A stretch of DNA of 61,504 nucleotides from Pyrinomonadaceae bacterium (GTDB lineage: Bacteria > Acidobacteriota > Blastocatellia > Pyrinomonadales > Pyrinomonadaceae): assembly GCA_035606195.1 (NCBI GenBank), contig DATNFX010000313.1:1-61504 (forward strand), read 5' to 3'. Numbering within the stretch: the first letter of the stretch is position 1; the number at the start of each line of letters is the position of its first letter. The position numbers and the translations under genes were made by a program. Shown here in pieces: positions 8,526 to 57,600 of the stretch. Below the pieces are notes generated by a model. It had not been told where the DNA came from. It saw only the letters and a list, made by a program, of their open reading frames with translations, and made no database searches.

Positions 8526-9260
8526 ATGGTTGGGACATCGAAAAAGGTTGATATTGAAAACAAAATTCTCACTGCGCTACCTCATGAAGAGTTAGTGCGC
8601 ATTCTACCGCACCTCGTAAGTGCTCGCCTCGAAAAGGGGGAAGTGATTTATGTAACCGGGGACAGAATCCGCTATGTCTACTTTCCGAGCAACGGTTTGA
8701 TTTCATTGCGTTGTGTAAGCTCCTCAGGTTCCACGGTCGAAGTGGCAATGGTAGGTGATGAAGGTATTATTGGATATCCCGTGATTCTAGGTAATTGGTT
8801 GATGCCCTACGAGGTCACCGTTCAAATTACTACCGACGTATTAAGGATCAAAGCGGATGACTTCCAGGAAGAGTTCAATAAGAGAGGAGCGCTATACCAC
8901 CTCACCTTGCGTTATCTTAATTTAATTATTGCGGAAATCTCGCAGTCATCTCTCTGTCATCGTTTTCACACTGTCGAAGAAGGACTCATCCGCTGGTTGC
9001 TCATCGCTCACGATCGATTATTCTCGAGTAGCCTTAACGTCACGCACGAGACTATTTCGAACTCTCTGGGTGTGCCGAGGACAGGTGTGACAATGGCTGC
9101 AGGTGCGTTACAGCGCGCAGGGATAATTCGTTACACTCGTGGCAAGATTGTTATCCTCGATCGGGCTAGACTGGAGGCCAGCTCATGTGAGTGTTTTCGA
9201 ATAGTCCACGATGAGCTCAACCGCTTTTCGAAGGAACAAATTCCGTCCTCGATTTCTTAA
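8526..9260 (+). CDS. Crp/Fnr-family transcriptional regulator (cNMP-binding-like domain plus C-terminal HTH)
   Basis: 244 aa. The N-terminal beta-roll-like region (GEVIYVTGDRIRYVYFPSNGLISL) and C-terminal HTH (THETISNSLGVPRTGVTMAAGALQRAGIIRYTRGKIVILD) are typical of the family. Confidence 0.85.
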   Translation: MVGTSKKVDIENKILTALPHEELVRILPHLVSARLEKGEVIYVTGDRIRYVYFPSNGLISLRCVSSSGSTVEVAMVGDEGIIGYPVILGNWLMPYEVTVQITTDVLRIKADDFQEEFNKRGALYHLTLRYLNLIIAEISQSSLCHRFHTVEEGLIRWLLIAHDRLFSSSLNVTHETISNSLGVPRTGVTMAAGALQRAGIIRYTRGKIVILDRARLEASSCECFRIVHDELNRFSKEQIPSSIS

Positions 9261-9281: not shown

Positions 9282-9400
9282 TTTGTCTAATTTCAGACTC
9301 AGTCGACTTCACGACAGACGAGACATCTCATCTGATGTAGAAAGTTCGTGCTCTGACTAAACGGAAGACTCCAAACCCAGAGGATTCCCCTCCCTTACCC
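9282..9400 (+). promoter_or_regulatory. conserved leader element, copy A (paralog at 46995-47112), containing TGTCT-N6-AGACT
   Basis: Shares with copy B the blocks TTTGTCT.ATTTCAGACTCAGTC, TTCACGACAGAC, GTAGAAAG and GCTCTGACTAA, plus a weaker ..GAGGA.TC...CCTCCC tail. Same order and orientation in both copies. Confidence 0.6.
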
Positions 9401-9589
9401 CCATTAGTCAAAAAGCAGTTCAAGTAAATAAGTTTCGCTGTTTTTAACTGACGGAGACGAGTCTGTGGGATAGCTTTAGGTTTCATGGCCTGTTTATTCG
9501 GGCCCCCCATCACTCTCATGCCTAGATACCGTCACTCGCAAATCAGAAATAAGTCCAGGGCAGGAATGTAAGTAAGGAGGCCAACTCTG

Positions 9590-10114
9590 ATGATTCAGGA
9601 CGTCAGCGATAGACCAACTTGGTACGCAATCTGCACAAATCCTCAGCAGGAAGACCGAGCTTGCAGTAATCTGCGCGCGTGGGGAGTAGAATGCTTGAAC
9701 CCCAAAATTAAGGAGTCTCGACGTAATCATTTCACGGGCATCGCCGAAGTCATTTCCAAACCATTGTTCCCGCGTTACATTTTCTCACGCTTCGAACTGA
9801 AAGGCGCATTTCACAAGATCAGTTTTACCAGGGGTGTCCATCGTGTGGTAAGTTTCGACGGTCGGCCCACTCCAATTGATGAAGACGTGATCGCGTTGAT
9901 TCAGTCGCGCGTAGGCAGCGATGGATTCGTCAAGATAGGTGCGAGCTTGAAACCTGGCGATGTGGTGCGAGTCAAAGATGGTCCGTGGAAGGCCCTGACC
10001 GGTGTAGTAGAGCGTGAGTTCAAGACAAACGAGAGGATCACGCTCCTATTGCAGTCCATCAAGTATCAGAGTCGCCTGACAATTGAAAGTCATTGGGTTG
10101 AGAAGATCAGTTGA
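9590..10114 (+). CDS. NusG-paralog transcription antiterminator (RfaH/LoaP/UpxY/TaA-like)
   Basis: 174 aa. AAGGAGG RBS at 9574-9580. NGN-like N-terminus (WYAICTNPQQE...KPLFPRYIF) and KOW motif (LKPGDVVRVKDGPWKALTGVVE). Confidence 0.8.
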   Translation: MIQDVSDRPTWYAICTNPQQEDRACSNLRAWGVECLNPKIKESRRNHFTGIAEVISKPLFPRYIFSRFELKGAFHKISFTRGVHRVVSFDGRPTPIDEDVIALIQSRVGSDGFVKIGASLKPGDVVRVKDGPWKALTGVVEREFKTNERITLLLQSIKYQSRLTIESHWVEKIS

Positions 10115-10290
10115 TTTACGTTAGGCCCTTCAGTCCTTGATTGAAGTAAATGATTTAAGCGTTCCCCATAGTGACCTCCCCGAACAGTGAACGAATATGA
10201 GTGAGTCCGCGCGGCTTTATGTCCGCGGTCTCATTCGAACCGGTTTCACCAGGTAATCCCAGTTTCGTAGATTGCACCTCTGGTGCAGAG

Positions 10291-10309
10291 TGCGGTAGCT
10301 CTGCCTGCC
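10291..10309 (+). promoter_or_regulatory. ops-like box TGCGGTAGCTCTGCCTGCC (copy 1)
   Basis: Contains GCGGTAGC, which matches positions 2-9 of E. coli ops (GGCGGTAGCGTG). 17/19 identical to 47271-47289. On the non-template strand of the leader, 65-71 nt before the first megasynthase start. Preceded by a TGCACC-TCT-GGTGCA hairpin (10273-10287). Confidence 0.5.
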
Positions 10310-10355: not shown

Positions 10356-13300
10356 TTGTCAATGAGTACAAACACCCTCGCTATCCGTGAGCGCAACGCT
10401 GAAGTGCCGTCTACTTCGCTGACGCTCGTCGAGCTTCTAAGAAACCGAGCGCGGCTCCACGCCGATAGGGCTGCATATATCTTTCTCTCGGATGGAATCA
10501 CCGAAGAGACCACGCTGACCTGGGGAGATCTCGACCTCCAGGCGCGTGCCATGGGCGCATGGCTGCAATCGCTTACTGCTCGCCGAGAACGAGTACTCTT
10601 GCTTTACCCTGCCGGTCTCGAATACATCACCGCTTTCTTCGGGTGCTTGTATGCGGGTGTAATCGCTGTTCCAGCTTATCCGCCAAGGCAAAACCGGAAC
10701 CTGCGCCGCTTGCACTCGCTGATAATCGACGCGCAGCCGGCTGTCGCTTTAACTACCCGACCAATCTTGTCTCGAGTAATCAATTCATTCGGCAAAAATC
10801 CGGAGCTTGCAATGCTTCGCTGGGTTGCGTCTGAAGATAGACCAACCGCAGAACCGGAAAACTGGCAAGCGCCTGAAATCGCCCCGACTGACCTTGCGTT
10901 CTTGCAATACACATCAGGATCGACGTCGGCCCCCAAGGGCGTGATGCTGAGTCATAGCAATCTCGTCCAAAACGATCGTTTGATACATAAAGCTTTCGGC
11001 CAAACAGAACAGTCAGTCATAGTGAGTTGGCTGCCGCTTTATCACGACATGGGCCTTATCGGCGTCGTTCTTCACGCGTTGTCGGCCGGCGCGCGGTGCA
11101 TTCTCTTGTCGCCGACGGCGTTTTTGCAGCAGCCCTTTCAGTGGCTTCAGACTATCTCTCGCTATCGTGCCACCACGAGTGGTGGGCCAAACTTTTCCTA
11201 CGATCTCTGCGTGCGAAAGATTACCGATGAACAACGGGCCACGCTGGATCTGAGCTCGTGGAGTGTTGCCTTCAATGGCGCTGAAACTGTTCGCGCCGAA
11301 ACGATGGATAGGTTCGCCGCGGCCTTCGCCCCCTGCGGTTTTCGTCGCGAAGCGTTCCGGCCTTGTTACGGATTGGCCGAAGCAACGTTGATTGTGTCTG
11401 CTCGCGGCGAGTCCAGAGCTGAAGAGAACCGGCCTCTCGTCAAACACGTTTGCAAAACATCGCTGGAACAAAATCGCGTGATCGAGTTGGGGAAGAAAAC
11501 TCCAGACGCCCGCACAGTGGTCACGTGTGGTGCGCCGCTGTGCGCTCGGGAAGTGATCATCGCCAATCCCGATACATTGACGGGATGTGCGGCCAATGAG
11601 GTGGGTGAGATCTGGGTGTCAAGCCCAAGTGTCGCCGCCGGCTATTGGAACAACACCGAAGAGAGCGCGCGTACATTTCGAGCTGTTCCAAATGGTAGTA
11701 AAGCGACGTATCTGCGCACCGGCGACCTGGGCTTTCTTCTTGACGGTGAACTTTTTTTGACCGGTCGCCTCAAAGATTTGATCATCACGCGCGGGCGGAA
11801 CCTTTACCCTCAGGACATAGAAGGTACTGTTGAGCAGTGCGATCCGTCGCTTCGTCCGGGCTGTGGAGCTGCGTTCTCGGTAACGGTCGAGAGTGAGGAG
11901 CGCGTGGTCATAGTCCACGAGATAGAACCTCGGCGCACGGTGGAACTACAGTCTCTCATTACCTCAATACGCCAGGCCATTAGTGAAGAACATGAAGTAG
12001 TGGTGTATTCGGTTGCACTCGTCAAAGCTGGAATGGTCCCGAAGACATCCAGTGGCAAAATTCAGCGGAAAGCATGTCGCGAACTGTTTTTAGAAGGCGG
12101 ACTGGCGCCGATTGCCTATTGGCTGGAGACGCCTTTCGGCCATAAAGAAAACCTGTCCGATTCTCTGCGGCCCGCAGACTCTCTGAACGGAGCAGAGACG
12201 CTGAATTGGCTTCGCCTTCAGTTTGCGCAAGTTGTGAACATCAGCGCGGCCGAGATCGACATTCATCAGCCAATCCTGCGCTATGGTTTGGATTCACTGC
12301 TGGCGACTGAGTTGACACATCGCATTGAGTCAGAGCTGGGGATAGCAGTTCCGCTTACGAGTTTGTTGGAAAGCCCCACGATTGAGCAACTCGCAGCCAG
12401 TATTTGCGGCGAGGCTTTCGTCCGGGATAACGAAGAGCTGGTGGGACCTACACCTCTGACGAACACATCCTCAGAATATCCACTCTCATTCGGACAACAG
12501 TCACTCTGGTTTCAGCACCGCATGGCGCCGGACAGCGCCGCCTACAATCTCGCCAGTGCGTTGCGTCTCCGAGGACCTCTGAATGCGGTAGCTCTGGAGC
12601 GCGCCTTTGCATCTCTGGTGCAACGTCACGCGATGCTCAGGACCACCTTCTCTCAAAATAGCCTCGCTCCGCGCCAGCAAATACACGAAGAAATGCCCGT
12701 TTGCTTCGAGTTCGCTGACGCCTCATCGTGGAGCGAAGCCGCTGTACGCGAGTATTTGTTAAAGGAAGCGGAAGGGCCTTTCGACTTGTCCGCAGGACCA
12801 CTGCTACGGGTGAACCTGCTGAAGCGAGCTGACGATGAACACGTGTTGCTCGTCGCCGTTCATCACATCATCGTCGACTTCTGGTCCCTGTCAGTTTTGA
12901 TGAAGGAACTGGGTGTGCTCTACGAAGCGCACCGGAATGGTATGGATGCCAACCTGCCACCTTTGCAGTTGCAATACACGGATTACGTGCGCCACGAGAT
13001 GGAAGATCTCGAAGGGCCGCGCGGTAAGAGACTGTTGGAGTATTGGCAGCAACAGCTTGGTGGAGTGTTGCCGTTATTGAATCTCCAAACCGACTGGCCA
13101 AGACCCTCGCTGCAAACATTTCGCGGCTCTTCACAGAGTTTCAAGGTTAGCGCCGGCCTTACACACAAACTCAAAGAGCTTGGTCGAGAAACTGGCACAA
13201 CTCTGTACATGGTCCTGCTCGCGGCGTTTCAGCTGTTGCTCCATCGATACACGCAACAGAAGGAATTCCTGATCGGCTCACCGGTTGCGGGTCGTAACTC

Positions 13301-45400: not shown

Positions 45401-46902
45401 TCGTTTCGCGTCTGCGCGAAGCGTACAAACTAGAGGTGCCGCTCCGCCGGCTGTTCGAATTGCCAACCGTGTTTGAGCTCGCGACACACATCGACAGTCT
45501 GCTTCGTGACGGCAAGGATCTGGCCCAACCACCTATTCGGCGTCAGGCACAAGATGGTCCGCGGCCACTCTCGTTTGCGCAGCAGCGTCTGTGGTTCTGG
45601 GAGCAACTGGAACCAAACACTCCAACTTATAACCTCACGTCAGCGTTTCGACTCGAAGGAGATCTCGATCGCGCCGTCCTCGAGCGGACGCTGAACGAGA
45701 TCGTGCGCCGGCACGAGATTCTGCGGACCTCGTTTATGGCAGTTGACGGTGAACCGGTACAGGTCGTGGCTCCGCGCAAGACTCTTCGTGTGAACCTCTT
45801 AGACATCGGTTGGTTGCCGGCGGAAGAGCGCGAAGCTGAGGCGCGGCGTTTGACAGCAGAGGAAGCGTCGCGCCCGTTTGCCTTAAATAAAGCTCCGCTG
45901 CTGCGTGTGAAGCTGCTGCGCCTGAGTCCGCAGGAACACGTCGCACTGGTCGTGATGCACCACATCATTTCCGACGGCTGGTCGATGGGAGTTCTTATCG
46001 ACGAGGTAACGGCCTTGTACGAAGCTTTTCGTTCAAATCAGCCATCACCGTTGCCGGATTTGCCAGTGCAGTATGCCGACTTCGCTGAGTGGCAACTCGA
46101 GCTGTTACGCACGGAGAGCGAAGTCCTCGAGTCGCAGCTCAACTATTGGGCCGAAAAACTCCGCGAGGCGCCAAACCTGGAACTGCCTACCGATCGGCCA
46201 CGACCGCGTGTCTACAATCCGCGTGGGGCGATCATTCCTTTCAAGCTGTCAGCAGAATTGTTGCAGGAGCTGAAGACGTTAAACCGTCGAGAACACGTGA
46301 CTCTGTTCATGACTCTGCTCGCCGCGTTCAACATCCTGCTCCGCTCACGCGCTCGACAGGACGACATCGTTGTTGGCGCGGATATCGCTAATCGAACGCG
46401 TGTGGAAACGGAAGGCCTGATCGGGTTCTTCGTGAACATGTTGGTGCTGCGAACAGATCTCAGCGGCGACCCGACGTTCGGCGAGTTGCTGCAAAGAGTA
46501 CGCGAAGTCACGCTTGGCGCTTACGCGCACCAGGATGTGCCGTTCGCCAAACTCGTAAGTCAATTGCAAGTAAAGCGCGACTTGAGTCGCAACCCGCTTT
46601 TCCAGGTTGTGTTTGTGTTGCAAAACGCTTCTATGAAAACGCTGGAGCTGCCTGGGTTGAAGCTGAGTCCGTTCGAGTTTGGAATGACGAACGCGCCCTT
46701 CGACATTGTCCTATCGCTCAACGAGACTCCGGACGGATTGCTTGGCTCCATTACTTACAACACAGAACTTTTCGACGAGCAGACAGCGCGGCGACTGTTA
46801 GACGATTACGAGAATATGCTCGAACGCCTGGTAAAAGATCCAGCTCAACGGATCTCAAGTCTCGAGCTTTTTCGCCCGCGTGAGTTGGGCCAACATGCGT
46901 GA
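33421..46902 (+). CDS. NRPS: C-A[FkbM MT insert]-T-C-A-T-C-A-T-C-T-C
   Basis: C motifs YHGLVDG (33847), HHVISDG (37918), HHAILDG (41131), HHLIADG (44266) and HHIISDG (45958). A cores near 35270, 39346 and 42511. T serines at 37342, 40522 (GGDS), 43690 and 45382. FkbM-like insert at ~36151-37090. No A domain between the C at 44266 and the T at 45382. Confidence 0.95.
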   Translation: MKMKNVEDIYPLSPMQEGILFHTRHDPAFAMYFEIITGTMHGEVDLSAFARAWQSVVDRHAVLRTAFVWEGLDEPIQVVRRRAKLTVTNHDWRSLTIDEQSNALAELFAAERALGFDLSKAPLMRVALIQTGAGSYRFVWTYYHGLVDGWSGSLVFNDVLLFYEALTNGVEINLPAAPSFRSYIDWVRSHDFAEAREYWRRTLRGFKAATPIDFVSPHETSSSDRTTSYREREFNLNAETTARLLRLSRQERLTLNTICQGAWAILLHRYSGQRDVVFGVTVSGRPPELEHIETMIGMLINTLPARIEVTPDAKLVPWLKDIQARQWEMRQYEYSPLVEVQGLSDVPRTNPLFDSIVSFENHPIDHSLLKRNDRAQVRDVVHYHTATGYPINIIIEPGAELSVKLLYDFGRIDDARVDRILGHLGHLLTDIAADPDRIISKFAVLTPHEQQELLVEWNMTAAEYRRDVCLHELFEEQVERAPERPAVVFRDRQLSFSELNAQANQLARYLRRLGVGPEVRVAVCMERSVEMVLGMIATLKAGGVYVPLDPSQPTQRLKFLFGDANVRVVLTQKALTELLPACDSEIVCLDECLTQPEYTTNLPVSTTAESLAYVIYTSGSTGTPKGVMVQHRSAVNLVGALQQEIYQDQNDALRVGLNAQVIFDASIKQLLQLLSGHTLVVVPEEIRANPDELLGHVAEQQLDVLDCTPSQLQLLLTSKSWRERRPKLMLIGGESLRSHLWDRLAAEQGTEFYNVYGPTECTVDAAIGHIRTAGEPPNIGRPINNTRIYLLDDRQQPAPLGVRGEICVAGECLARGYLNGPESTAEKFIPEPFSGAAGARMYRTGDVGRYLEDGRLQFVGRADHQVKVRGVRIELGEIETALRQHHGVRDAVVQAHGESSEDRRLVAYVVPERTRSLPLVAKSNGDDLLAGKQVSKLPNGMVIAGHGSLQASGVYREIFEDRIYMKHGIRLDENACVFDVGANIGLFTLFVKQQSPGARVYSFEPLPPNFEALQTNVKFYGLDVELFECGLSSRRETATFTFYPHAAAMSGKGSRVDEDKAAARANVGSWLKTFEHNSQTPGQYDLDSFVEHYLIGESYTCQLRTLSEVIRENEIERIDLLKLDVERSEFDVVLGIEDEDWKKIRQFVIEVHSDGLLEQITALLRTRGFTFVVEKSAIVETTSQDIVRGYMLYAWDPEQRAASNGNGANPAPEVPELSPDDLRNFLREHLPIQMIPSAFVLLKELPLMASGKVDRCALPAPDGPIILTDEHVAPRTPVEEIVAGICASVLRLDDISVTGNFFDLGGHSLLAAQVISRVRETFHIELSLRNLFLKPTVEGLAENIERSLKAGEQVAVGTIARVSRAVDLPLSFSQQRIWFLDQMAGGTPYYNIISRVRLQGELNLDALQRAFAEIVRRHEILRTTFANFRGRPTQIVSPWTPSTLEIEEIAGETDEERAENARLLARQEAMEPFDLSSGPLLRVRILRLSDAEHLAILKLHHVISDGWSTSVLVNELSTLYSAFLQDQPSPLAELPFQYSDYAVWQRGWLQGEVLETQLNYWRRQLKDAPALLELPTDKPRPAIQTFNGAPEHFEIGPELAARLRGLSRDEGATLFMTLLAAFTTLLYRYSNQNDIVIGTDIANRTRADIENLIGFFANMVLLRSNVSDNPTFAELLGRIRETALGAYAHQDLPFEKLVEELQPERSLSHAPFFNVVFVLQNTPRNALELPGLKVTPEPFESNFTRFDLEFHLWESEERLSGFLISNTDLFEPDTIRRLLNHFTNLLEGIVADPDRRIASLPLLSVDERCRFLTTANNTTADYPRNGLIAQHFESQCARTPEATALIFGEREMTYHELNRRANQLAHHLKSLGVGPEIPVALCIERSFEMVVALLAIIKAGGYYVPLDPEYPIGGLEFIFNDLAIPVVVTQESLLGVLPAHWSHVLSLDTDWDAIARKSDENLRLEGIAEHLAYVMYTSGSTGQPKGVAVTHRGVLRLVKETNYASFGSDEVFLQLAPITFDASTFEVWGSLLNGGRLVIFPPKAPALEEVGAALRRHGVTTLWLTAGLFHLMVDQRPDDLRELRQLLAGGDILSAAHVQKVLRSFPGRLINGYGPTENTTFTCCYPMMRGEESRDVVPIGRPISNTQVYLLNRDLEPVPPGVAAELYTGGDGLARGYHYRPELTAERFIPHPCGKPGERLYRTGDLARYLPDGRIEFAGRLDHQVKVRGFRIELEEIEGVLAAHPAVRQCVVLARADAGLEKQLVAYVVLEDERELIATGMRSYLGQHLPDYMVPSQLVILDSFPLTANGKVDRQALPAPGEVRDKVKEEYVPARTPAEKALVEIWQDVLGVERVSVNDNFFDLGGDSIRSIQVHARAEEHGYQVSVREILQLQTIAELARVAERTDSGVAESCKSDAFGLVGIDDRHRLPESIEDAYPLSFLQRGMLYHTNLSGELALYHVIFSCVVRGSLEIEALKGVLQRVTEQHPILRTSFDLHSYSEPLQLVHDRVTVPFEVVDLAYLAATDRKQAFAEWQEEEKRRGFDWSSPPIMRLRLFVHGETEFRIALSFHHAILDGWSLSSMLSELFSLYQELRDREEPATSFRDFIALEQQALHSEENQRYWSEKLSTLPFTMLPPREGSAPPDASRNILQVRFDSELAGGLKSFARRAGVPLKSVLLAAHCKILGVLTGQPEVTTGLVSNGRPEAGGGDRALGLFLNTVPFSTRIQDKSWLDLAQAVAAEENELSAFRRYPLAELQRARGGEPLFEATFNYTHFHILENVHESNDFKVVDAEVFSQINFPFSAGFDLNNSELVLILEHDLSRISLQQIDEIKNYYAGALHAIVSNPAGKDNSWALVEAERRRLLVQWNETSADYPREVCLYELIEAQVERTPAAVALISGDEQTSYRELNERANQFAHYLESLGAGPDVLVGVMLNRSVDMIVALLAVLKAGAAYVPLDPAYPRERLRFMIEDAGVSILLTEQALVDRLPENGPKRVLIDTDKTAIQPHSRMSPLSGVSAGNLVYIIYTSGTTGRPKGVMLDHREVVNCVLWMQSTYALTPQDSMLCKTTLNFDPSIWEIFWPLLTGGRVVLTRSEDQHDSAALLQIIIDRHVTIAYFVPAMLRLFLSEDGVAQARSLRKVICGGESLPHDLVKLFYQRLPQATLHHSYGPTETAIASVETICAPDSPYGVTPIGRPLANTELYVLDQQMQPVPRGVIGELFIGGEGLGRGYLKRPDLTAERFVPDPFGPRPHGRLYRTGDMVRYLPCGNLEFHGRRDEQVKLRGLRIELGEIQAAITVEQDVETALVTLRHDHSGGSSLIAYVVPKPGSELVVAELRQRVAQRLPAAMVPTAFMIIETLPLLPNGKVDRAALPNPEFEVANDYLVPRDAVEELIAGIWAELLDLERVGVHDDFFTIGGHSLIATQVMARLFDVFHVDLGLRSLFETPTVAALAQRINCAMREGRLSQPFEIGPWPRPQPLPLSFAQQRLWFLEQLGSPGAAYHIPVIFRIRGRLDVEVLARVVNEIMQRHESLRTSFHVVDGAPVQVINRYQEVSLPLIDLSDLPEEQREADAVLLSSQQSQLRFDLSAGPLMRVCLLRLNQQEHVLQLTLHHLIADGWSVAVLARETRALYEAVCQDQPSPLPALEIQYADFALWQREWLQGDLLAGQIDYWRRQLAGAPPALELPTDQTRPALQSFRGSQIGFTLARALTQELHSLSRREGTTIFMTLLAAYAVLLSRYANQADVVVGTPIANRRQTELEGLIGFFANTLALRVKVHPELTFRALLRNVREVTLGAYANQDVPFERLVEELRPARELNRNPFFQVTFGVQNIPHAQLNLPGLEIGVQEFVTGATRFDLECFLREEDGELRGNFTYSTDLFEQQTIESMLRHFERLLELVVADPKQQLCEIQLLTPEEEQQLIRRRDAQLKRGGNQVEAADKGPPQAPASTAATELVAEIWAEVLGLERVGLHQDFFELGGHSLLATRVVSRLREAYKLEVPLRRLFELPTVFELATHIDSLLRDGKDLAQPPIRRQAQDGPRPLSFAQQRLWFWEQLEPNTPTYNLTSAFRLEGDLDRAVLERTLNEIVRRHEILRTSFMAVDGEPVQVVAPRKTLRVNLLDIGWLPAEEREAEARRLTAEEASRPFALNKAPLLRVKLLRLSPQEHVALVVMHHIISDGWSMGVLIDEVTALYEAFRSNQPSPLPDLPVQYADFAEWQLELLRTESEVLESQLNYWAEKLREAPNLELPTDRPRPRVYNPRGAIIPFKLSAELLQELKTLNRREHVTLFMTLLAAFNILLRSRARQDDIVVGADIANRTRVETEGLIGFFVNMLVLRTDLSGDPTFGELLQRVREVTLGAYAHQDVPFAKLVSQLQVKRDLSRNPLFQVVFVLQNASMKTLELPGLKLSPFEFGMTNAPFDIVLSLNETPDGLLGSITYNTELFDEQTARRLLDDYENMLERLVKDPAQRISSLELFRPRELGQHA
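36151..37090 (+). other. second FkbM-family methyltransferase domain embedded in an A domain
   Basis: VFDVGANIGLFTLFVKQQSPGARVYSFEP...LLKLDVERSEFDVVLG lies between RRLVAYVV and LPIQMIPSAFVLLKELPLMASGKVDR. Collinear with the 25051-25980 insert. Confidence 0.8.
45172..45300 (+). other. C-to-T junction where an A domain is missing (~43 codons)
   Basis: LLTPEEEQQLI (the normal C-A linker) runs straight into RRRDAQLKRGGNQVEAADKGPPQAPASTAATELVAEIWAEVLG...FFELGGHSLL (the normal pre-T segment). Confidence 0.85.
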
Positions 46903-46994: not shown

Positions 46995-47112
46995 TTTGTC
47001 TGATTTCAGACTCAGTCCGATTCACGACAGACAGCAACGTCTCAGGTTGGGTAGAAAGGGGCGGCTCTGACTAATAGATGTTCTATCCGAGGACTCGCTC
47101 CGACCTCCCCAG
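46995..47112 (+). promoter_or_regulatory. conserved leader element, copy B (paralog of 9282-9400), containing TGTCT-N6-AGACT
   Basis: Same conserved blocks as copy A, in the same order and orientation. Sits in the 433-nt gap between the NRPS stop (46902) and the MbtH-like gene. Confidence 0.6.
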
Positions 47113-47270
47113 TAGAGAGAAAGCCCTGAGCAACTACGTAGTACCTATGTTGTTGTGTGGACACTTCATGCTTACGAGCTCTCGGTAATTAGAACAAGCC
47201 TGCGGACGACTTGTCCGAGTAGGCATCCACACATTTTGTCTTCTCATTTAAGATGCCACTTGGCTTCGGA

Positions 47271-47289
47271 TGCGGTAGCTGTGCCGGCC
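47271..47289 (+). promoter_or_regulatory. ops-like box TGCGGTAGCTGTGCCGGCC (copy 2)
   Basis: 17/19 identical to 10291-10309 and contains GCGGTAGC. Lies 65 nt upstream of ATG 47336. Confidence 0.5.
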
Positions 47290-47335: not shown

Positions 47336-47569
47336 ATGGACCGAGATGACGCAGAAGATCAAACAATCTATAAAGTTGTGCTCAACCACGAAGAGCAGTA
47401 CTCGATTTGGCCTGCCGATCGCGAGAATGCACTCGGTTGGTTTGACGCCGGTAAAACCGGTATGAAGGCCGAATGTCTGGAGTACATCAAAGAGGTCTGG
47501 ACTGACATGAGACCTCTGAGCCTGCGCAAGCATATGGAGGAAGCTGCCGCAAAGCAGTCGAGCGCGTAG
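47336..47569 (+). CDS. mbtH: MbtH-like protein
   Basis: 77 aa. GGAGGG RBS at 47324-47329. Hallmark [24 protein letters not shown]...AECLEYI with the conserved Trp residues. Confidence 0.9.
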
Positions 47570-51992: not shown

Positions 51993-54338
51993 ATGGCCCA
52001 GTCGTCGGTATCAGTAAAAGCCGGTCCGGTGGTGTCCGCCAAGCCGTTCGATAGCGCCGCACTTTTTAATGTCCTTAGCTTGCTGTTCGTCGTCTTTGTA
52101 GTGTTTGTCGCTGTACACCTGCAAAAGGCGCCGGCAGCGGTACCACAAAGCGCTCCGCTGGATGTTTTCTCTTCGGGCCGTGCAATGAATGATCTCAAGG
52201 TCATTGCTGCTGGTCCACGTCCTATCGGAACAGCTCAACAGGCGGCAGTAAGACAGCATATCGTTCAGCGCTTGAGCAGCCTGGGTCTCGAGCCGCAGGT
52301 GCAAACGACCACCGCCGTTAATAGCGCCTACAGTCAGGCCGGAACAGTAAACAACATCGTTGCGAGAATAAAAGGCTCGAATGGCGCCAAAGCGTTGGTG
52401 CTGTCAACGCACTACGACTCTGTGCCGTACGGTCCCGGCGCGAACGACGCGGGCACTGCCGTTGCCGCCTTACTCGAAACCGCGCGCGCGTTGAAAACCG
52501 GTGGGCTGCTAAAGAACGACCTGATCTTCCTGTTTACCGATGGTGAGGAAACTGGACTTCTGGGCGCGCAGGCTTTCGCGAGCGAGCACCCCTGGGCCAA
52601 AGACGTTGGTTTGGTTTTGAACTTCGAGGCGCGCGGCAACACGGGTCCTTCAATAATGTTCGAGAGCAGTAATAATAATGCCTGGCTAATCGACGGTTTG
52701 GACCAGGCGGCGCCCGCTCCAATATCCAACTCTCTGGCGAATGAAGTCTACCGGCTCTTGCCCAACGATACGGATCTGACAGTATTCAAAAAGGCGGGCT
52801 GGGCGGGTCTGAACTTTGCTTACATCGATGGCCTGACACATTATCATACGCGCCTCGATGACCTCGGAAACACAGATGAGCGTAGTTTGCAGCATCAAGG
52901 TTCTTACGCGCTCGCACTCGCGCGATATTTTGGCAATGTCGACCTGACGCGCGGCGGTCAGGGCAATGCTGTGTACTTCAATATCCTCGGCACTGCGTTG
53001 CTTCATTACTCTTATGCATGGAACATCCCGCTGGCCATCTTCACTCTGCTAATCACGATCGCGGTTTTAACTATCGGAATTCGTAAAGGTGAGCTAACGC
53101 TGCGAGGTATTGCGTGGGGGACACTGACCTTCGTAGTCGCACTTGCCGTGAGCTGGTTCGTCGTGACGGGTTTGTGGTGGTTGATAAACCTGGTGGCGAA
53201 TTGGACTGGTTCGATATTTCAGAACAGAGCCTCTCGCAGTGAGTACTATTTTTTAAGTTTCGTGGCGCTGTCCGCGGCACTGTTTGCGGGCATGATCCAA
53301 TGGTTACGAAAGAAAACTGCGGATGCAAACCTGTTCGCGGGAGTTTTGGTTTTATATGCGTTACTGCTGTTACCCGCGACGTTGTTCCTCCCGGGCGTGA
53401 GTTATCTTTTTGTCTGGCCGCTGCTGGGTGCAGCCGTGTCGCTACTAATCGCCTTCGTGACTACTGACAAGGAAAGCGAATCACCACAACGACTTGGCAT
53501 TCTCACGCTCGGCGCGCTGCCTGGTCTGCTCCTCCTTGCTCCAACAGTCTACTTCTTGTATACCGCTCTGGTTTTGAGTATGCCGGCGGTATTGATTGTC
53601 CTGGCGGTGTTAGCGCTTGGTTTGTTGGCGCCCGCTCTGGCGCTGCCGGCAGTTTCAAAGCGATGGCTATTGCCGGTCGGTCTCGCAATCGCCGGCGTGG
53701 TGTTGCTGGCTATCGCTGGTTTGAACTCCAACTTCGACCACGACCAACCGCAAAAATCAGATCTCTTTTATGCCATGAACGCCGGCACCGGCAAAGCCAT
53801 TTGGGCCAGTGCGGACGTCCGGCTAAACGACTGGACCCGGCAATTCCTCGCGCAGGGAAACAGAGGAGACGTCAATCAATTCTTTCCCTCGCGCAATCGC
53901 TCGTTTCTACAAAGCGAGGCGCCTGCGATCCAGGAACCAGCGCCTGGCCTGCAAGTGCTGAAAGATGAAAACGGTTCTGACGTTCGCCGAGTGCAGTTAA
54001 AAATTACCTCGCCGCGTCAGGCCCCGAGCCTTGTAGTCTTTGTCGATGCCGACGTGCTGAAGGCAACAGTCAACGGCAGAGAAATTACGACTCCAGCCTC
54101 TCTGCGTGTTGGATCTGGTAGCGGTTGGTCCATGCAGTACAGCGGGACGCCTGTCGAAGGCTTTGATCTAGCGCTTGAGTTAAAACCATCGCAGCCGCTC
54201 AAGATCACGATAGTTGACCGCACCGATGGCTTGCCACAGTCATTAATTGGGAATTTCAAGTCACGCCCTGCTGACTTGGCGCCGTCTTCAAACCCATTCA
54301 GTGATGCGACTTTCATAAGCCGCTATTTCACACTCTGA
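51993..54338 (+). CDS. membrane-embedded M28-family metallopeptidase
   Basis: AGGAGAG RBS overlaps the upstream stop. M28 motifs STHYDSVPYGPGANDAGTAVAALLE and LFTDGEETGLLGA. N-terminal anchor plus a block of ~8 hydrophobic helices (about aa 330-560) and a C-terminal soluble domain. Confidence 0.8.
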   Translation: MAQSSVSVKAGPVVSAKPFDSAALFNVLSLLFVVFVVFVAVHLQKAPAAVPQSAPLDVFSSGRAMNDLKVIAAGPRPIGTAQQAAVRQHIVQRLSSLGLEPQVQTTTAVNSAYSQAGTVNNIVARIKGSNGAKALVLSTHYDSVPYGPGANDAGTAVAALLETARALKTGGLLKNDLIFLFTDGEETGLLGAQAFASEHPWAKDVGLVLNFEARGNTGPSIMFESSNNNAWLIDGLDQAAPAPISNSLANEVYRLLPNDTDLTVFKKAGWAGLNFAYIDGLTHYHTRLDDLGNTDERSLQHQGSYALALARYFGNVDLTRGGQGNAVYFNILGTALLHYSYAWNIPLAIFTLLITIAVLTIGIRKGELTLRGIAWGTLTFVVALAVSWFVVTGLWWLINLVANWTGSIFQNRASRSEYYFLSFVALSAALFAGMIQWLRKKTADANLFAGVLVLYALLLLPATLFLPGVSYLFVWPLLGAAVSLLIAFVTTDKESESPQRLGILTLGALPGLLLLAPTVYFLYTALVLSMPAVLIVLAVLALGLLAPALALPAVSKRWLLPVGLAIAGVVLLAIAGLNSNFDHDQPQKSDLFYAMNAGTGKAIWASADVRLNDWTRQFLAQGNRGDVNQFFPSRNRSFLQSEAPAIQEPAPGLQVLKDENGSDVRRVQLKITSPRQAPSLVVFVDADVLKATVNGREITTPASLRVGSGSGWSMQYSGTPVEGFDLALELKPSQPLKITIVDRTDGLPQSLIGNFKSRPADLAPSSNPFSDATFISRYFTL

Positions 54339-54364
54339 GAGGCTTTGCACAAAAATTACGGTCT

Positions 54365-54595
54365 TAGCCTGCGAAGCAGGCGGAAGCATAAAGCCTGGGG
54401 CGTAAGCCCCAAGGTCAAAGCGAAACAGATTTTCAAGCCCGCGAATGCGGGCGACAGAGCAAGCGCAGTCAAAATGGGACCGAATTTTGTTGCCCATGAG
54501 CTGCCGCCCATTTCATGGGCTCGCAAATTTAATTTTAATCCTCCTCCTGGGGCTTGCGCCCCAGGCTTTATGCTTCCGCCTGCTTCGCAGGCAAG
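54365..54595. repeat. composite palindromic (MITE-like) element: repeat copy 2 (54365-54478) plus inverted partial copy 3 (54546-54595) flanking a central hairpin
   Basis: CCTGC-GAA-GCAGG (54368-54380). CCTGGGGC-GTAA-GCCCCAAGG (54394-54414). GCCCGC-GAAT-GCGGGC. Central CCCATGA-N13-TCATGGG (54493-54519). The inverted copy contains CCTGGGGCTTGCGCCCCAGG (54546-54565) and CCTGCTTCGCAGG (54579-54591). Confidence 0.8.
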
Positions 54596-54686
54596 GTCCA
54601 CTTTTTGTGCAAAGCCACTCTGAGACAGCTCTCGTATCTTAACCTCGCAGAGAAAAGCGCGTAGGCCGACCAGCTAAGCGAAACCC

Positions 54687-57600
54687 ATGACAGTCAGTGT
54701 AAGCCCGGTCTCCGAAGAGAGGACACGGAATAGCATCGCTCGTAATCTGGTTGAACTCCTGATCTCGAGAGCGCAGGAGCAGCCGGATCGCGTGGCCTAT
54801 ACGTTTGTCGCGCAGGATGGCGCCGAAGAGCTCAGCGTCACCTACGAGGAGCTCGATCAAAAAGCCAGAAAGATCGCAGCAGCGATTCGGACGCGGGAAC
54901 TCAGCGGCGCGCACGTTTTGTTGGTTTATCCATTTGGACTCGAATACGTCGCAGCCTTCTTCGGCTGTTTGTATGCCGGTGCGGTCGCAGTGCCTGCGTA
55001 TCCGCCTCGTTCGAACCGCAACGTGACGCGGTTGAGATCGATCATCGTCGACGCGCAAGCGCGACTAATCCTCACCACAGAGACGTTGCGCAGCAGGCTC
55101 GAAAGTCTCTTGGGTGAAGAGTGCGATCTCGAGTGTTTGATCACGCCAGGCATTGACGATCGACTCGCTGAGGATTGGACGCCTGATCCAATCGATGGCG
55201 ATAGCGTGTGTCTTCTTCAGTACACGTCTGGCTCAACTTCGATACCGCGCGGCGTGCTGGTGACGCACAGTAACCTTTTGCACAATGAAGCACTGATTGC
55301 CGAAGCGTTCGAGCAGCGGCCTGAGTCAGTGATTGTGAGCTGGTTGCCGCTTTACCACGATATGGGGCTGATTGGGGGCGTGTTGCAGCCACTCTATCTG
55401 GGTGCGCGCTGCATACTTTTCTCGCCGTTGAGTTTCCTGCAACGTCCTTCCTTGTGGCTTGAACTGATCACGCGCTATCGCGCAACGACGAGCGGTGGGC
55501 CAAATTTCGCCTACGATTTATGTTTGCGAAAGATTCCGGCGGAAGCGCGCGCGACGTTTGATCTTCGCAGTTGGCAGGTCGCGTTCAATGGCGCTGAACC
55601 CGTGCGGCAGGAAACGCTCGAACGATTTGCTGAAGCATTTGCGCCCGCGGGATTCCGGCAGGAGGTTTTCTTCCCTTGTTATGGCCTCGCAGAGGCGACT
55701 TTGCTTGTTTCCGGAGGCAAGGCGAAAGACGCCGCACCGGTTATCAAGCCATTGCAGAGCAGTGAACTCGAACGAAACCGGGTCGTCGAGGGAAGGCCTG
55801 ACGAAGGACTGCGATATCTCGCCAGTTGTGGCATCCATGCGCGCGGACAAAAGGTTGTTGTGGTCAATCCCGAAACTCTGTTTGAGTGCCCGCGCGGGGA
55901 AATTGGCGAAGTGTGGGTGGCTGGGCCAAGTGTAGCGCTCGGTTATTGGAACCAGCCCGATCTGACGGCACAGACTTTCCGCGCTTATCTCTCCGGCACT
56001 GGCGCAGGACCTTTCTTACGCACTGGAGATCTCGGCTTTGTCGATGATGGAGAACTATTCATCACGGGCCGGCTAAAGGATCTCGTCATCGTTCGCGGTC
56101 TGAACTACTACCCACAGGACATCGAACTGGTGGCCGAGCATTGCCATCCGTCATTGCGTGCCGGTTGCGGCGCTGCGTTCACCGCTGACGTTGAAGGCGC
56201 CGAAGAGTTGGTTGTTGTGTACGAGGTGGATCGCCGTCGCACGGTCGAGATTGACAAAGTGCTCGTGGCAATTCACGAAGCGATTGCAGAAGAACTGGAG
56301 CTACAGGTTTCGACTGTTCTCCTGACAACGACTGGTTCGATACCAAAGACCTCGAGCGGGAAGATTCAACGAAGTCTTTGCCGCGAAATGTTTTTGGCGG
56401 GCGAGTTGAAGACAGTGGGTGCGTGGAGTGCGCGTTCGGGGCCCGGCGCCGTCGCTGGTGCTGACGATGTTGAGTCGATCGAGGAGTGGCTGATAAAGCA
56501 ACTGGCGCAGAGACTCGGTGTAGAACGATCGAGCATCGACGTCGAGCAGCCGATCGTGCGCTACGGGATTGATTCACTGGCGGCAGTAGAGTTGGCCCAC
56601 CTGATCGAGAGCCGCTTTGGGATCGTCGTGCCCATGGTTCGCTTTCTCCAGGATTCTTCTGTTCGTGAGTTGGCTACCTTTGCGCGGTCACAGCCGGAGG
56701 GGCCCGAGTTCTCCGCCGAGGATTTTCAACATTCAGAACAGCCGTTGTCTTCCGGGCAGCAATCTCTCTGGTTCATGCAAAAGCTGGCGCCGGAAAGCAC
56801 GGCCTACAACCTGGCCCGCGCGTTCCGAGTGAGGTCTCGGCTGGACCAGGAGGCGTTGCGGCGAGCGTTGAAAAAGTTAGTTGCTCGCCACGCTGCGCTT
56901 CGTACTACGTTCCACGAATCGCATGGCCGGCCGGTGCAAAGGATTCATGAGTTCGCGGAGATCTCTTTCCACGAGCTTGACGCCTTATCGATGAGCGAAC
57001 TTGCTTTTCAAGAGCGACTCACTGAAGAAACTAAAAAGCCGTTCAATCTCGAAACCGGGCCGCTGCTGCACGTGACTCTCTTTCGGAGAGCGCATGACGA
57101 GCACGTCCTGCTAATCGTAATTCATCACATCGTCTCTGATTTTTGGTCGTTCGCGCTTGTCATGAAAGAGCTGAGCGCGCTATATGCGGCAGAGGTAAAT
57201 GGTCAGGTTGCTAAGCTCGATCCGCTGCACGGGCAGTACGCGGAGTACGTAGCATCGCAGACCGATTTTATTGTTAACGGCAGGGGCCGATGTTGCGAGG
57301 AGTACTGGCAGCAGCAGCTCTCGGGCGAGTTGCCTCGGCTCAATCTACCTGGCGCTAATCCACGCCCGGCATTCAAGACGTTCGCCGGCCGATCGGCACT
57401 TTTAAAGTTCGACGCGGATTTTGGAGCACGCGTCAAAGCTCTCAGTAAAGAGTACGGCGCGACTCCGTACATGATCTTACTGGCGGGCTTCTACACGTTG
57501 CTGCACCGGCTCACGGGTGAGCACGATTTGATCGTTGGCACACTTACTTCGGGGAGAAGTCGTCCGCAGTTTGCCGGCAACGTTGGTTATTTTGTTAATC

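What the first reader, a model, noticed from the sequence alone, without database searches (positions are those of the whole stretch)
9282..9400. Conserved ~80-120 nt leader element duplicated in front of two transcription units of the cluster
9282-9360 and 46995-47074 align block for block: TTTGTCT[A/G]ATTTCAGACTCAGTC, TTCACGACAGAC, GTAGAAAG and GCTCTGACTAA. A weaker shared tail (GAGGA.TC...CCTCCC) extends to about 9400 and 47112. Both copies are on the + strand in large intergenic gaps. One lies between the Crp/Fnr gene and the NusG-paralog gene; the other lies after the 13.5-kb NRPS gene and before the MbtH-like gene.

Each copy starts with TGTCT-N6-AGACT (9284-9299 and 46997-47012). This is the 5-6-5 palindrome geometry of CRP/FNR-family operators, and a Crp/Fnr-family regulator is encoded immediately upstream.

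A variable segment forms a hairpin in both copies with different sequence: ACATC-N6-GATGT versus CAAC-N7-GTTG. That hints at compensatory change and an RNA-level role. I could not find a convincing -35/-10 pair inside the element.
Basis: partly seen in the sequence, partly recalled or inferred. Interest (0 to 1): 0.7.

Follow-up and report, generated by a model that had tools for sequence, protein, structure and literature searches.

The report
Duplicated Crp-type operator-promoter in NRPS cluster
The repeated 80-nt block is most likely a regulated promoter (tandem binding sites for the neighbouring Crp/Fnr-type regulator plus -35/-10 boxes) placed before two operons of an acidobacterial peptide-antibiotic gene cluster. 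It is not an RNA leader; the cluster's NusG-like antiterminator appears to use a separate ops-like site further downstream.

Summary
The repeat is real.

Comparison with about 50 related copies from Pyrinomonadaceae/Acidobacteriota genomes and soil metagenomes resolves the anatomy:
- Two tandem palindromes, GTCT-N6-AGAC and GTCn-N6-nGAC, start 17 bp apart.
- An invariant AGACA follows, then 17-18 nt, then TAnAAA.

This reads as operator plus -35/-10. With the predicted start sites (~9350 and ~47064), the proximal palindrome is centred at about -41.5/-42.5.

The element tracks the Crp/Fnr gene, not the NusG paralog. It is present in 17 of 20 loci with a Crp homologue and in 0 of 46 without.

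The "compensatory hairpin" lies in the -35/-10 spacer and is not conserved. No Rfam family matches. The shared tail (small hairpin, C-rich loop, CCTCCC) is conserved at the start of the predicted leader, but its function is unresolved.

Each transcription unit also carries a hairpin followed by GCGGTAGCTnTG, at 10273-10303 and 47252-47283. This is an ops-like site and the likelier loading site for the RfaH-like NusG paralog.

Verdict: a new member of a known kind (activator-dependent promoter). All function is inferred from sequence.

The parts
8526..9260 (+). Crp/Fnr-family regulator gene (244 aa), the proposed binder of the operators
   Evidence: Pfam cNMP_binding + HTH_Crp_2. Homologues sit next to the element in 17 of 20 genome loci that encode one. 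The start of the recognition helix (PRTxVT) is nearly invariant across about 40 homologues.
9285..9298 (.). Copy A distal operator palindrome, GTCT-AATTTC-AGAC
   Evidence: It is conserved as GTCT-N6-AGAC in related copies. Its centre is about -58.5 from the predicted start site.
9302..9315 (.). Copy A proximal operator palindrome, GTCG-ACTTCA-CGAC
   Evidence: It starts 17 bp after the distal site. It is the only site retained in the minimal elements of distant Crp-positive loci. Its centre is about -41.5 from the predicted start site.
9315..9320 (+). Copy A -35-like hexamer CAGACG (family consensus CAGACA; GACAGACA is nearly invariant)
   Evidence: CAGAC is present in all 52 copies, but it was the alignment anchor and part of the metagenome search pattern. 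The independent support is its presence in all 18 copies of the protein-sampled set. Positions outside the pattern are also conserved: G 48/52, A 48/52, final A 49/52.
9338..9343 (+). Copy A -10-like hexamer TAGAAA, 17 nt after the -35-like box; predicted start site about 9350
   Evidence: The spacer is 17 nt (23 copies) or 18 nt (28 copies). The hexamers are TAAAAA, TAGAAA, TAGAAG, TAAATA, TATAAA and similar. In the protein-sampled genome loci, 15 of 16 copies outside the window have TA at that spacing.
9351..9409 (+). Copy A start of the predicted 5' leader: GCTCTGACTAA, a small hairpin (GGAAG..UCC / GGA..UUCC) with a C-rich loop, then CCTCCC...CATTAG
   Evidence: The sequence blocks are conserved in 22 leaders. 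The structure is only weakly supported: 78% of cells paired against 76% in shuffles, and RNAalifold recovers it on 8 close relatives with a negligible covariation term.
9590..10114 (+). RfaH-like NusG paralog gene, the first gene of unit 1
   Evidence: Pfam NusG. NCBIfam RfaH scores 99.5 bits, below its cut-off of 144.5. The best solved relative is E. coli RfaH at 2.6e-9.
10273..10303 (+). Hairpin (TGCACC-TCT-GGTGCA) + GAGT + ops-like GCGGTAGCTCTG, about 60-70 nt before the first NRPS gene. Outside the finding's coordinates
   Evidence: The same hairpin + GCGGTAGC motif is found in 46 instances across the loci.
46998..47011 (.). Copy B distal operator palindrome, GTCTGA-TT-TCAGAC (perfect 6-2-6)
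47015..47028 (.). Copy B proximal operator, GTCC-GATTCA-CGAC
   Evidence: Its centre is about -42.5 from the predicted start site.
47028..47033 (+). Copy B -35-like CAGACA
47052..47057 (+). Copy B -10-like TAGAAA, 18 nt after the -35-like box; predicted start site about 47064
47065..47118 (+). Copy B start of the predicted leader: GCTCTGACTAA ... GAGGAC ... CCGACCTCCCCAGTAG
   Evidence: The orthologous copy in a relative with about 76% nucleotide identity (L118) keeps the same blocks.
47252..47283 (+). Weak hairpin + GGAT + ops-like GCGGTAGCTGTG, 64 nt before the MbtH start codon (47336). Outside the finding's coordinates

Best explanation
The ~80-nt repeat is a DNA-level promoter-operator module, not an RNA element.

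Each copy holds two tandem 14-bp palindromes (GTCT-N6-AGAC, then GTCn-N6-nGAC) that start 17 bp apart. They are immediately followed by a -35-like AGACA, a 17-18-nt spacer and a -10-like TAnAAA.

The Crp/Fnr-family protein encoded at 8526-9260 is proposed to bind the palindromes as a dimer. Most likely it activates transcription from about 9350 and about 47064, with the promoter-proximal site at the Class II position (about -41.5). One regulator would therefore switch on both transcription units together:
- unit 1, the NusG paralog plus the NRPS genes;
- unit 2, MbtH, tailoring genes and further NRPS genes.

The shared 'tail' is the conserved first ~50 nt of the two leaders, and its role is unresolved. 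Processivity control by the RfaH-like NusG paralog is a second, separate layer. That layer is served by hairpin + GCGGTAGC (ops-like) sites at 10273-10303 and 47252-47283.

Shown: the anatomy, the conservation, the spacing and the co-occurrence. Inferred: binding, activation rather than repression, and the start sites.
For: 1. The element is found at the same place (after the Crp gene and 250-600 nt before the NusG-paralog gene) in loci fetched by protein similarity only.

2. Anchored comparison shows the palindromes, a nearly invariant GACAGACA and TAnAAA at 17-18 nt. In the protein-sampled set, 15 of 16 copies outside the window have TA at that spacing.

3. Distant Crp-positive loci keep only the proximal palindrome + AGACA + 17-18 nt + TATAAG/TATACA/TATATA. 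That is the core expected of a Class II promoter.

4. Co-occurrence: 17 of 20 loci with a Crp homologue carry the element, against 0 of 46 NusG-paralog loci without one (Fisher 4.5e-13). Loci with NusG only 43-50% identical but Crp present have it (L020, L028, L045, L061). Loci with NusG 54-55% identical but no Crp lack it (L012-L015).

5. A DNA-pattern scan of metagenomes, blind to proteins, gave 39 real copies. All lie upstream of co-oriented genes wherever downstream sequence exists. In 24 of them a Crp homologue lies within the fetched sequence just upstream. The genes downstream are the NusG paralog, MbtH, methylaspartate mutase + NRPS, NRPS and similar.

6. Copy B is kept at the orthologous NRPS-to-MbtH junction in a relative with about 76% nucleotide identity (L118).

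7. In L122 the start codon lies 16 nt after the -10 box, so the transcript must start close to it.

8. The Arg that begins the Crp recognition helix (PRTxVT) is invariant, as in NtcA.

9. There is no support for RNA structure.
Against: - The -10 box usually ends in A or G rather than the canonical T, and the -35 matches TTGACA in only 4 of 6 positions. The consensus promoter scan therefore does not call either copy. No transcript data were available.
- A 17-bp centre-to-centre spacing puts neighbouring dimers on different faces of the helix. This is unusual for CRP-type tandem sites and is unexplained.
- The co-occurrence statistic ignores phylogenetic relatedness.
- 39 of the 52 copies were retrieved with a pattern that fixed GTCT, AGAC, GTC, CAGAC and TAnA(A/T). 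Conservation at those positions is independent only in the protein-sampled set.
- Binding by the Crp-like protein, and activation as opposed to repression, are untested.
- BLASTP could not align the protein with E. coli CRP, so residue-level specificity arguments rest on the HTH pattern and on the NtcA alignment.
Confidence: 0.7

Rival explanations
1. The block is a transcribed cis-regulatory RNA or non-template-strand element in the 5' leader. It would recruit the cluster's NusG paralog or otherwise act at the RNA level, as ops/JUMPStart, LoaP-leader or riboswitch-like elements do.
For: Both copies precede long operons in a cluster that encodes an RfaH-like NusG paralog. The 3' tail of the element (from about 9351 and 47065) is conserved, and a small hairpin is recovered by RNAalifold on close relatives.
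Against: - The element is absent from 46 NusG-paralog loci that lack Crp.
- There is no ops core inside it. The ops-like GCGGTAGC sites lie elsewhere, at 10292 and 47272.
- The spacer hairpin is not conserved.
- Folding z-scores are -1.26 and -0.61.
- Rfam has no hits even at E<=10, apart from two chance matches to a TMV pseudoknot and a snoRNA.
- Pairing in the tail hairpin is not above shuffles.
Confidence: 0.1
2. The palindromes are operators, but the bound protein represses rather than activates, or a regulator other than the adjacent Crp/Fnr protein binds them.
For: The proximal site abuts the -35-like box, so occupancy could also occlude RNA polymerase. Up to three tandem sites occur in some relatives (L016, L010, L002), which is reminiscent of repressor arrays. 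No binding data exist.
Against: The only gene consistently linked to the element is the Crp homologue; the other neighbours differ between loci. The weak -35 and atypical -10 suit an activator-dependent promoter, and sites at -41.5 are typical of activation in this family (established knowledge of CRP/FNR Class II promoters).
Confidence: 0.15
3. The block is a generic dispersed or mobile repeat (MITE- or REP-like) that happens to lie in two intergenic gaps.
For: It contains inverted repeats and occurs more than once per genome. Two relatives carry a tandem duplication of it (L005, L107).
Against: There are only two copies in 61.5 kb, both co-oriented with the operons. All 39 real metagenome copies sit at a fixed orientation upstream of genes and show no terminal repeat or target-duplication structure. 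Copy B is conserved at the orthologous position in a diverged relative.
Confidence: 0.03

Closest known systems
Class II CRP/FNR-family activator-dependent promoters (E. coli CRP TGTGA-N6-TCACA, FNR TTGAT-N4-ATCAA, CooA-type TGTC-N8-GACA cores; sites centred near -41.5)
   Same: - A cNMP-binding + HTH_Crp_2 regulator.
- A dyad with two short half-sites whose centres are about 10 bp apart (GTCT-N6-AGAC).
- The proximal site abuts a weak -35 at about -41.5/-42.5 from the predicted start site.
- The Arg at the start of the recognition helix is conserved.
   Different: - The half-site is GTCT, not GTGA or TTGAT.
- Sites are arrayed in tandem with a 17-bp period (2-3 per promoter).
- The regulator is cluster-situated in NRPS clusters of uncultured Pyrinomonadaceae rather than global.
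- The effector is unknown.
- Nothing has been tested biochemically.
- The comparison with the CooA site is from memory, not from a tool.
RfaH-ops / JUMPStart leader elements of Proteobacteria
   Same: They sit in 5' leaders of long operons that depend on a NusG paralog. The window has GCGGTAGC, identical to ops positions 2-9 of GGCGGTAGCGTG (PMC5995543), ahead of the first NRPS gene and ahead of MbtH.
   Different: - These ops-like sites are not the element in the finding.
- They are preceded by a variable-sequence hairpin 2-3 nt upstream.
- The paralog keeps only 1 of the 4 RfaH side chains that contact ops (K10, H20, R23, R73 become N, N, A, R).
- The paralog is encoded in the operon it would serve.
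Cluster-encoded NusG paralogs (LoaP in Bacillus, TaA in Myxococcus, UpxY in Bacteroides)
   Same: A NusG paralog is encoded at the head of a polyketide, NRPS or polysaccharide cluster and presumably acts on that cluster's leader.
   Different: For those systems recruitment is through an RNA hairpin (LoaP) or is unknown (PMC7593976). Here the candidate site resembles enterobacterial ops. The paralog scores below the curated cut-offs of the LoaP and UpxY models.
Cluster-situated regulators with repeated operator boxes at several promoters of one biosynthetic cluster (for example SARP heptad repeats in Streptomyces)
   Same: One pathway-linked regulator gene, with the same box repeated before several operons of the cluster and overlapping the -35.
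   Different: The regulator family (Crp/Fnr) and the phylum differ. The sites are palindromic rather than direct repeats.

Membership tests
CRP/FNR-family operator in an activator-dependent (Class II-like) promoter | A CRP/FNR-family protein (cNMP-binding-like domain + C-terminal HTH) is available to bind | tested here: met
   Pfam PF00027 + PF13545 on 8526-9260. The nearest solved relatives are Crp/Fnr and NtcA proteins.
CRP/FNR-family operator in an activator-dependent (Class II-like) promoter | Dyad-symmetric site with two 4-5-bp half-sites about one helical turn apart | tested here: met
   GTCT-N6-AGAC at 9285-9298 and 46998-47011, and GTCn-N6-nGAC at 9302-9315 and 47015-47028. Both are conserved in relatives, with 10-bp perfect arms in L020 and L009.
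CRP/FNR-family operator in an activator-dependent (Class II-like) promoter | Site and regulator co-occur across genomes | tested here: met
   17/20 against 0/46. In 24 of 39 metagenome copies found by DNA pattern alone, a Crp homologue lies within the fetched sequence just upstream. Phylogenetic non-independence was not corrected.
CRP/FNR-family operator in an activator-dependent (Class II-like) promoter | Site centred near -41.5 relative to a mapped transcription start, with recognisable -10 | tested here: inconclusive
   The -10-like TAnAAA lies 17-18 nt after AGACA, which puts the centres at -41.5/-42.5. The start site is predicted, not mapped, and the -10 lacks the canonical final T.
CRP/FNR-family operator in an activator-dependent (Class II-like) promoter | Direct binding and regulator-dependent transcription | not testable with these tools
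   Needs EMSA or footprinting and reporter or in vitro transcription assays.
RfaH-ops / JUMPStart-type recruitment element | ops core (GGCGGTAGnnTG) within the element | tested here: not met
   No GCGGTAG lies inside 9282-9400 or 46995-47112. The intergenic + strand matches are at 10292 and 47272.
RfaH-ops / JUMPStart-type recruitment element | Element accompanies the NusG paralog across genomes | tested here: not met
   It is absent from all 46 NusG-paralog loci without Crp, whereas exact GCGGTAGC lies near the paralog gene in 37 of 71 loci regardless of Crp.
Structured cis-regulatory RNA (riboswitch, leader or antiterminator RNA) | Match to a curated RNA family | tested here: not met
   Rfam at gathering threshold gives 0 hits in the window. 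E-value scans of both regions give nothing, or only chance hits at E 3-5.
Structured cis-regulatory RNA (riboswitch, leader or antiterminator RNA) | Conserved secondary structure supported by covariation | tested here: not met
   For 9282-9349, the spacer hairpin has mean z 0.006 over 52 copies, and the two copies fold differently with z -1.26 and -0.61. For the tail the result is inconclusive: 78% paired against 76% in shuffles, and the covariation term is -0.12.
Dispersed or mobile repeat (MITE/REP) | Many copies in varied orientation and context, with terminal repeats and target duplications | tested here: not met
   Two copies in the window. All related copies are co-oriented upstream of genes, and copy B is conserved at its orthologous position.

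The most novel reading that the evidence does not exclude
Uncultured Pyrinomonadaceae (and some Gemmatimonadaceae) may run their giant NRPS/PKS clusters with a conserved two-tier switch that has not been described.

1. A cluster-situated Crp/Fnr activator reads 17-bp-phased GTCT-N6-AGAC arrays at every operon start.
2. A hairpin-plus-ops site (GCGGTAGCTnTG) loads a cluster-encoded NusG paralog that lacks three of the four RfaH residues known to read ops.

The second tier would imply an independent or divergent way of recognising an ops-like signal. The conserved leader tail (C-rich loop + CCUCCC) could be a third, RNA-level layer, for example an anti-Shine-Dalgarno or Rho-loading segment.
Probability: 0.3. 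Interest if true: 0.6.

Novelty: new member of a known kind. Interest (0 to 1): 0.4.

Why it matters
Acidobacteria of the Pyrinomonadaceae carry some of the largest unexplored NRPS/PKS clusters in soil, and none can be cultured easily.

A defined operator-promoter module and its likely regulator give a concrete handle for switching such clusters on in heterologous hosts. The approach would be to co-express the Crp-like protein and keep the GTCT-N6-AGAC boxes. The module also helps predict operon boundaries and regulons in metagenome assemblies.

The side observation may matter more to transcription specialists. The recruitment mode of cluster-encoded NusG paralogs is described as unknown in the RfaH evolution literature (PMC7593976). 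A hairpin followed by an ops-like GCGGTAGC site accompanies cluster-encoded NusG paralogs outside the Proteobacteria, which makes that question testable.

Tried and rejected
- Rfam at gathering and at permissive E-value thresholds: no family.
- The consensus sigma-70 scan does not call the promoter, because the -10 lacks the final T and the -35 is weak. I kept the promoter reading on comparative grounds only.
- RNAalifold on 22 leader tails predicted no structure. My hand-drawn hairpin is not better than column shuffles. On 8 close relatives it reappears, but without covariation.
- Anti-Shine-Dalgarno idea (CCUCCC pairing with the downstream ribosome-binding site): the motif pairs with the site in only 4 of 13 minimum-energy folds. 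A 7-bp complement (GGCCUCC/GGAGGCC) exists in the L003 group but not in the window copies. Left as speculation.
- Rho-loading (C-rich) idea: only a mild C excess, with C/G about 1.5-1.7 at +25 to +85.
- BLASTP against E. coli CRP gave no usable alignment. Arguments about residue 181-type specificity are therefore not used as evidence.
- Other GTCT-N6-AGAC matches in the window (10829 and 60028) lack the AGACA/-10 context and are treated as chance.
- One contig of the closest NusG homologue (P0001) had no retrievable DNA.

Full report
**1. Observation**

- The 23-nt block TTTGTCT[A/G]ATTTCAGACTCAGTC matches only 9282-9304 and 46995-47017, even with three mismatches allowed; none is expected from shuffles.
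- GTAGAAAG-N5-GCTCTGACTAA matches only 9337-9360 and 47051-47074.
- TTCACGACAGAC matches only 9308 and 47021.
- The ~81-nt cores are 66/81 identical.

Both copies lie on the + strand in intergenic gaps.
- a Crp/Fnr-family gene at 8526-9260 (cNMP_binding + HTH_Crp_2);
- a NusG-family gene at 9590-10114, which best matches the RfaH model but scores below its cut-off;
- a 4493-aa NRPS ending at 46902;
- an MbtH gene at 47336-47569.

**2. Relatives**

The NusG paralog belongs to a large family in uncultured Acidobacteriota, mostly Pyrinomonadaceae/Blastocatellia.
- Two long contigs keep the order Crp, NusG paralog, NRPS, and their Crp-to-NusG gaps align with the window element.
- I fetched 80 further loci by NusG-paralog similarity.
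- An iterated nhmmer profile found the element 250-600 nt upstream of the paralog gene in about 17 of them.
- A separate scan of metagenome contigs used a DNA pattern only. It returned 43 stretches, of which 39 are genuine copies and 4 are GC-rich coding false positives.
- After removing duplicates there are 52 distinct copies.
- Two metagenome contigs are the same organism as the window (99.8% identity). Two others, L084 and L118, are the orthologous A and B regions of a relative with about 76% nucleotide identity. Copy B is therefore conserved at the NRPS-to-MbtH junction.

**3. Anatomy**

Anchored on the invariant CAGAC, the copies show the following layout:
- A distal palindrome GTCT-N6-AGAC.
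- Three bases later, a proximal palindrome GTCn-N6-nGAC. The two sites start 17 bp apart.
- Directly abutting the proximal site, AGACA. GACAGACA is nearly invariant.
- A spacer of 17 nt (23 copies) or 18 nt (28 copies).
- A TA-rich hexamer: TAAAAA, TAGAAA, TAGAAG, TAAATA, TATAAA and similar.

Some relatives carry a third upstream palindrome at the same 17-bp period (L016, L010, L002 and many metagenome copies). In L020 and L009 the dyad arms extend to 10 perfect base pairs.

Distant Crp-positive loci that the profile missed (L017, L030, L072) retain only the proximal palindrome, AGACA, 17-18 nt and TATAAG/TATACA/TATATA. That minimal form is what a promoter with one activator site would look like.

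In window coordinates:

| Feature | Copy A | Copy B |
|---|---|---|
| Distal site | 9285-9298 | 46998-47011 |
| Proximal site | 9302-9315 | 47015-47028 |
| -35-like box | 9315-9320 | 47028-47033 |
| -10-like box | 9338-9343 | 47052-47057 |

With the usual 7-nt distance from the -10 box, transcription would start near 9350 and 47064. The proximal site would then be centred at -41.5 (A) or -42.5 (B), and the distal site 17 bp further upstream.

One caution applies. The 39 metagenome copies were retrieved with a pattern that fixed GTCT, AGAC, GTC, CAGAC and TAnA(A/T). Conservation at those positions is independent only in the protein-sampled loci. There, 15 of 16 copies outside the window have TA at the expected spacing and all have CAGAC.

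**4. Which protein goes with the element**

A tblastn survey shows that the element follows the Crp homologue, not the NusG paralog.
- Among loci with at least 1.2 kb upstream sequence, 17 of 20 with a Crp homologue have the element.
- None of 46 without a Crp homologue has it (Fisher 4.5e-13, not corrected for relatedness).
- L012-L015 (NusG 54-55% identical, no Crp) lack it.
- L020, L028, L045 and L061 (NusG 43-50% identical, Crp present) have it.

In 24 of the 39 pattern-retrieved metagenome copies a Crp homologue lies within the fetched sequence just upstream. The remaining copies, like window copy B, sit before other operons:
- MbtH;
- methylaspartate mutase followed by NRPS;
- NRPS;
- an M28 peptidase;
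- a fatty-acid desaturase;
- a haem-oxygenase-like gene.

The Crp homologues share a nearly invariant start of the recognition helix, LGVPRTxVT. Its Arg aligns with the Arg of NtcA.

**5. RNA-level tests**

- Rfam finds nothing.
- As RNA, the two copies fold no better than shuffles (z -1.26 and -0.61) and fold differently from each other.
Over 52 copies that segment has a mean folding z-score of 0.006, so there is no conserved hairpin and no compensatory pattern.

The 3' tail is different. From about +1, the leaders of the window-type copies share GCTCTGA, then GGAUG...UCC, a C-rich loop, GGA...CAUCC, then GNCCUCCC.
- A two-helix hairpin can be drawn, and RNAalifold recovers it on eight close relatives. 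It has almost no covariation.
- Across 22 leaders the pairing is no better than column shuffles (78% against 76%).

I therefore record the tail as a conserved leader segment of unknown function. Two ideas remain speculative. An anti-Shine-Dalgarno role is supported in only 4 of 13 folds. A Rho-loading role rests on only a mild C excess.

**6. Where the NusG paralog fits**

Several related leaders contain GGCGGTAGCTTG, the enterobacterial ops consensus GGCGGTAGnnTG (ops12 sequence from PMC5995543).

The window itself has TGCGGTAGCT[C/G]TGCC twice in intergenic DNA on the + strand:
- 10291-10305, between the NusG-paralog gene and the first NRPS gene, preceded by the hairpin TGCACC-TCT-GGTGCA;
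- 47271-47285, 64 nt before the MbtH start codon.

Across the fetched loci there are 46 such instances, including two Gemmatimonadaceae loci.
- A hairpin of variable sequence (42 distinct stems, mean z -1.44) ends 2-3 nt before GCGGTAGC.
- Exact GCGGTAGC lies close to the paralog gene in 37 of 71 loci, with or without Crp.
- About two would be expected by chance, by my own estimate.

This is the likelier loading site for the paralog. The paralog's best solved relative is E. coli RfaH. However, it keeps only one of the four side chains that read ops in RfaH: K10, H20, R23 and R73 correspond to N17, N27, A30 and R81. Its recognition mode may therefore differ.

**7. Mechanism proposed**

One Crp/Fnr-type regulator binds the tandem palindromes and, most likely, activates two weak promoters. 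This would co-induce unit 1 (NusG paralog, then ops-like site, then about 36 kb of NRPS genes) and unit 2 (ops-like site, MbtH, tailoring genes, further NRPS). The paralog made from unit 1 would then load at both ops-like sites and secure read-through of the very long operons.

Shown:
- sequence anatomy;
- conservation;
- spacing;
- gene co-occurrence;
- absence of RNA-structure signal.

Inferred:
- start sites;
- binding by the Crp-like protein;
- activation rather than repression;
- paralog loading.

Weak points:
- The -10 box usually ends in A or G rather than T, so the generic promoter scan misses it.
- The 17-bp phasing of the sites is unexplained.

**8. Comparison with known systems, and novelty**

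The element works like a Class II CRP/FNR-dependent promoter and like the repeated operator boxes of cluster-situated regulators.
- It fails the tests for ops/JUMPStart membership.
- It matches no Rfam family.
- It does not behave like a dispersed or mobile repeat.

Literature searches found no description of this operator, or of ops-like sites in Acidobacteria. A 2020 analysis states that the recruitment mode of operon-encoded NusG paralogs is unknown (PMC7593976).

The finding itself is therefore a new member of a known kind and is moderately interesting. The hairpin + ops-like sites noticed on the way are the more unusual result.

Noticed in passing
window 10273-10303 and 47252-47283; also 46 instances in L001-L122 (for example L011 3584, L020 10720, L081 9822): A hairpin of variable sequence ends 2-3 nt before GCGGTAGCTnTG(C/T)C, which is identical to positions 2-9 of E. 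coli ops. It lies in the leader just before the first biosynthetic gene or just before or after the NusG-paralog gene. It is present with or without Crp, and also occurs in two Gemmatimonadaceae loci. It is the likely loading or pause site for the cluster-encoded NusG paralog.
   Followed up: partly
window 9590-10114: The RfaH-like paralog keeps only R81 (= RfaH R73) of the four RfaH side chains that contact ops. K10, H20 and R23 correspond to N17, N27 and A30, and N27 is invariant in the family alignment. Even so, the associated DNA motif keeps the GCGGTAG core.
   Followed up: partly
window 9411-9476 (and the equivalent region in L001, L003, L084, L089, L095, L096, L120, L124): A second conserved leader block lies about 60-125 nt after the predicted start site. 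It is a short hairpin followed by (G)TTTTCGCCTGACGnA...GTGTCTCTnGGATTGCT. It could be an attenuator, a pause site or a further protein site. Its function is unknown, and it is not obviously present in copy B.
   Followed up: partly
window 54333-54624: A long nested inverted repeat (52-nt arms at 92% and 23-nt arms at 91% complementarity) fills the gap between the gene ending at 54338 and the NRPS gene starting at 54687. It looks like a MITE or a giant hairpin.
   Followed up: partly
L084 8722-8800 and L118 8770-8850 (both from JGI sample Ga0179594): The A-type and B-type promoter copies of this relative are 72/81 identical to each other, including the spacer. Each is only 64-66/81 identical to the window copies. 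This suggests homogenisation (gene conversion) or recent duplication of the two promoters within a genome. That the two contigs come from one genome is assumed, not shown.
   Followed up: partly
L005 9630-9700 and 9745-9822; L107 (oriented copy) 1680-1760 and 1816-1873: The whole operator-promoter module is tandemly duplicated. The upstream copy has a degenerate -10 box (GTGCGAG or GTGTGAG), so it may serve only as extra operator sites.
   Followed up: no
L008, L009, L021, L024, L034, L039, L051 (for example L009 13093-13170): A different repeat, GGTCAGTACCACCT-GCGGTAGC-GGGTGGGT, occurs on both strands in non-ORF DNA. It contains the same GCGGTAGC octamer but in another context, possibly a REP-like element.
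   Followed up: no
window 10356-10364: The first NRPS gene has no obvious Shine-Dalgarno sequence before its probable ATG at 10362 (an in-frame TTG lies at 10356). RfaH-dependent genes in E. coli likewise often lack one and rely on RfaH-ribosome coupling.
   Followed up: no
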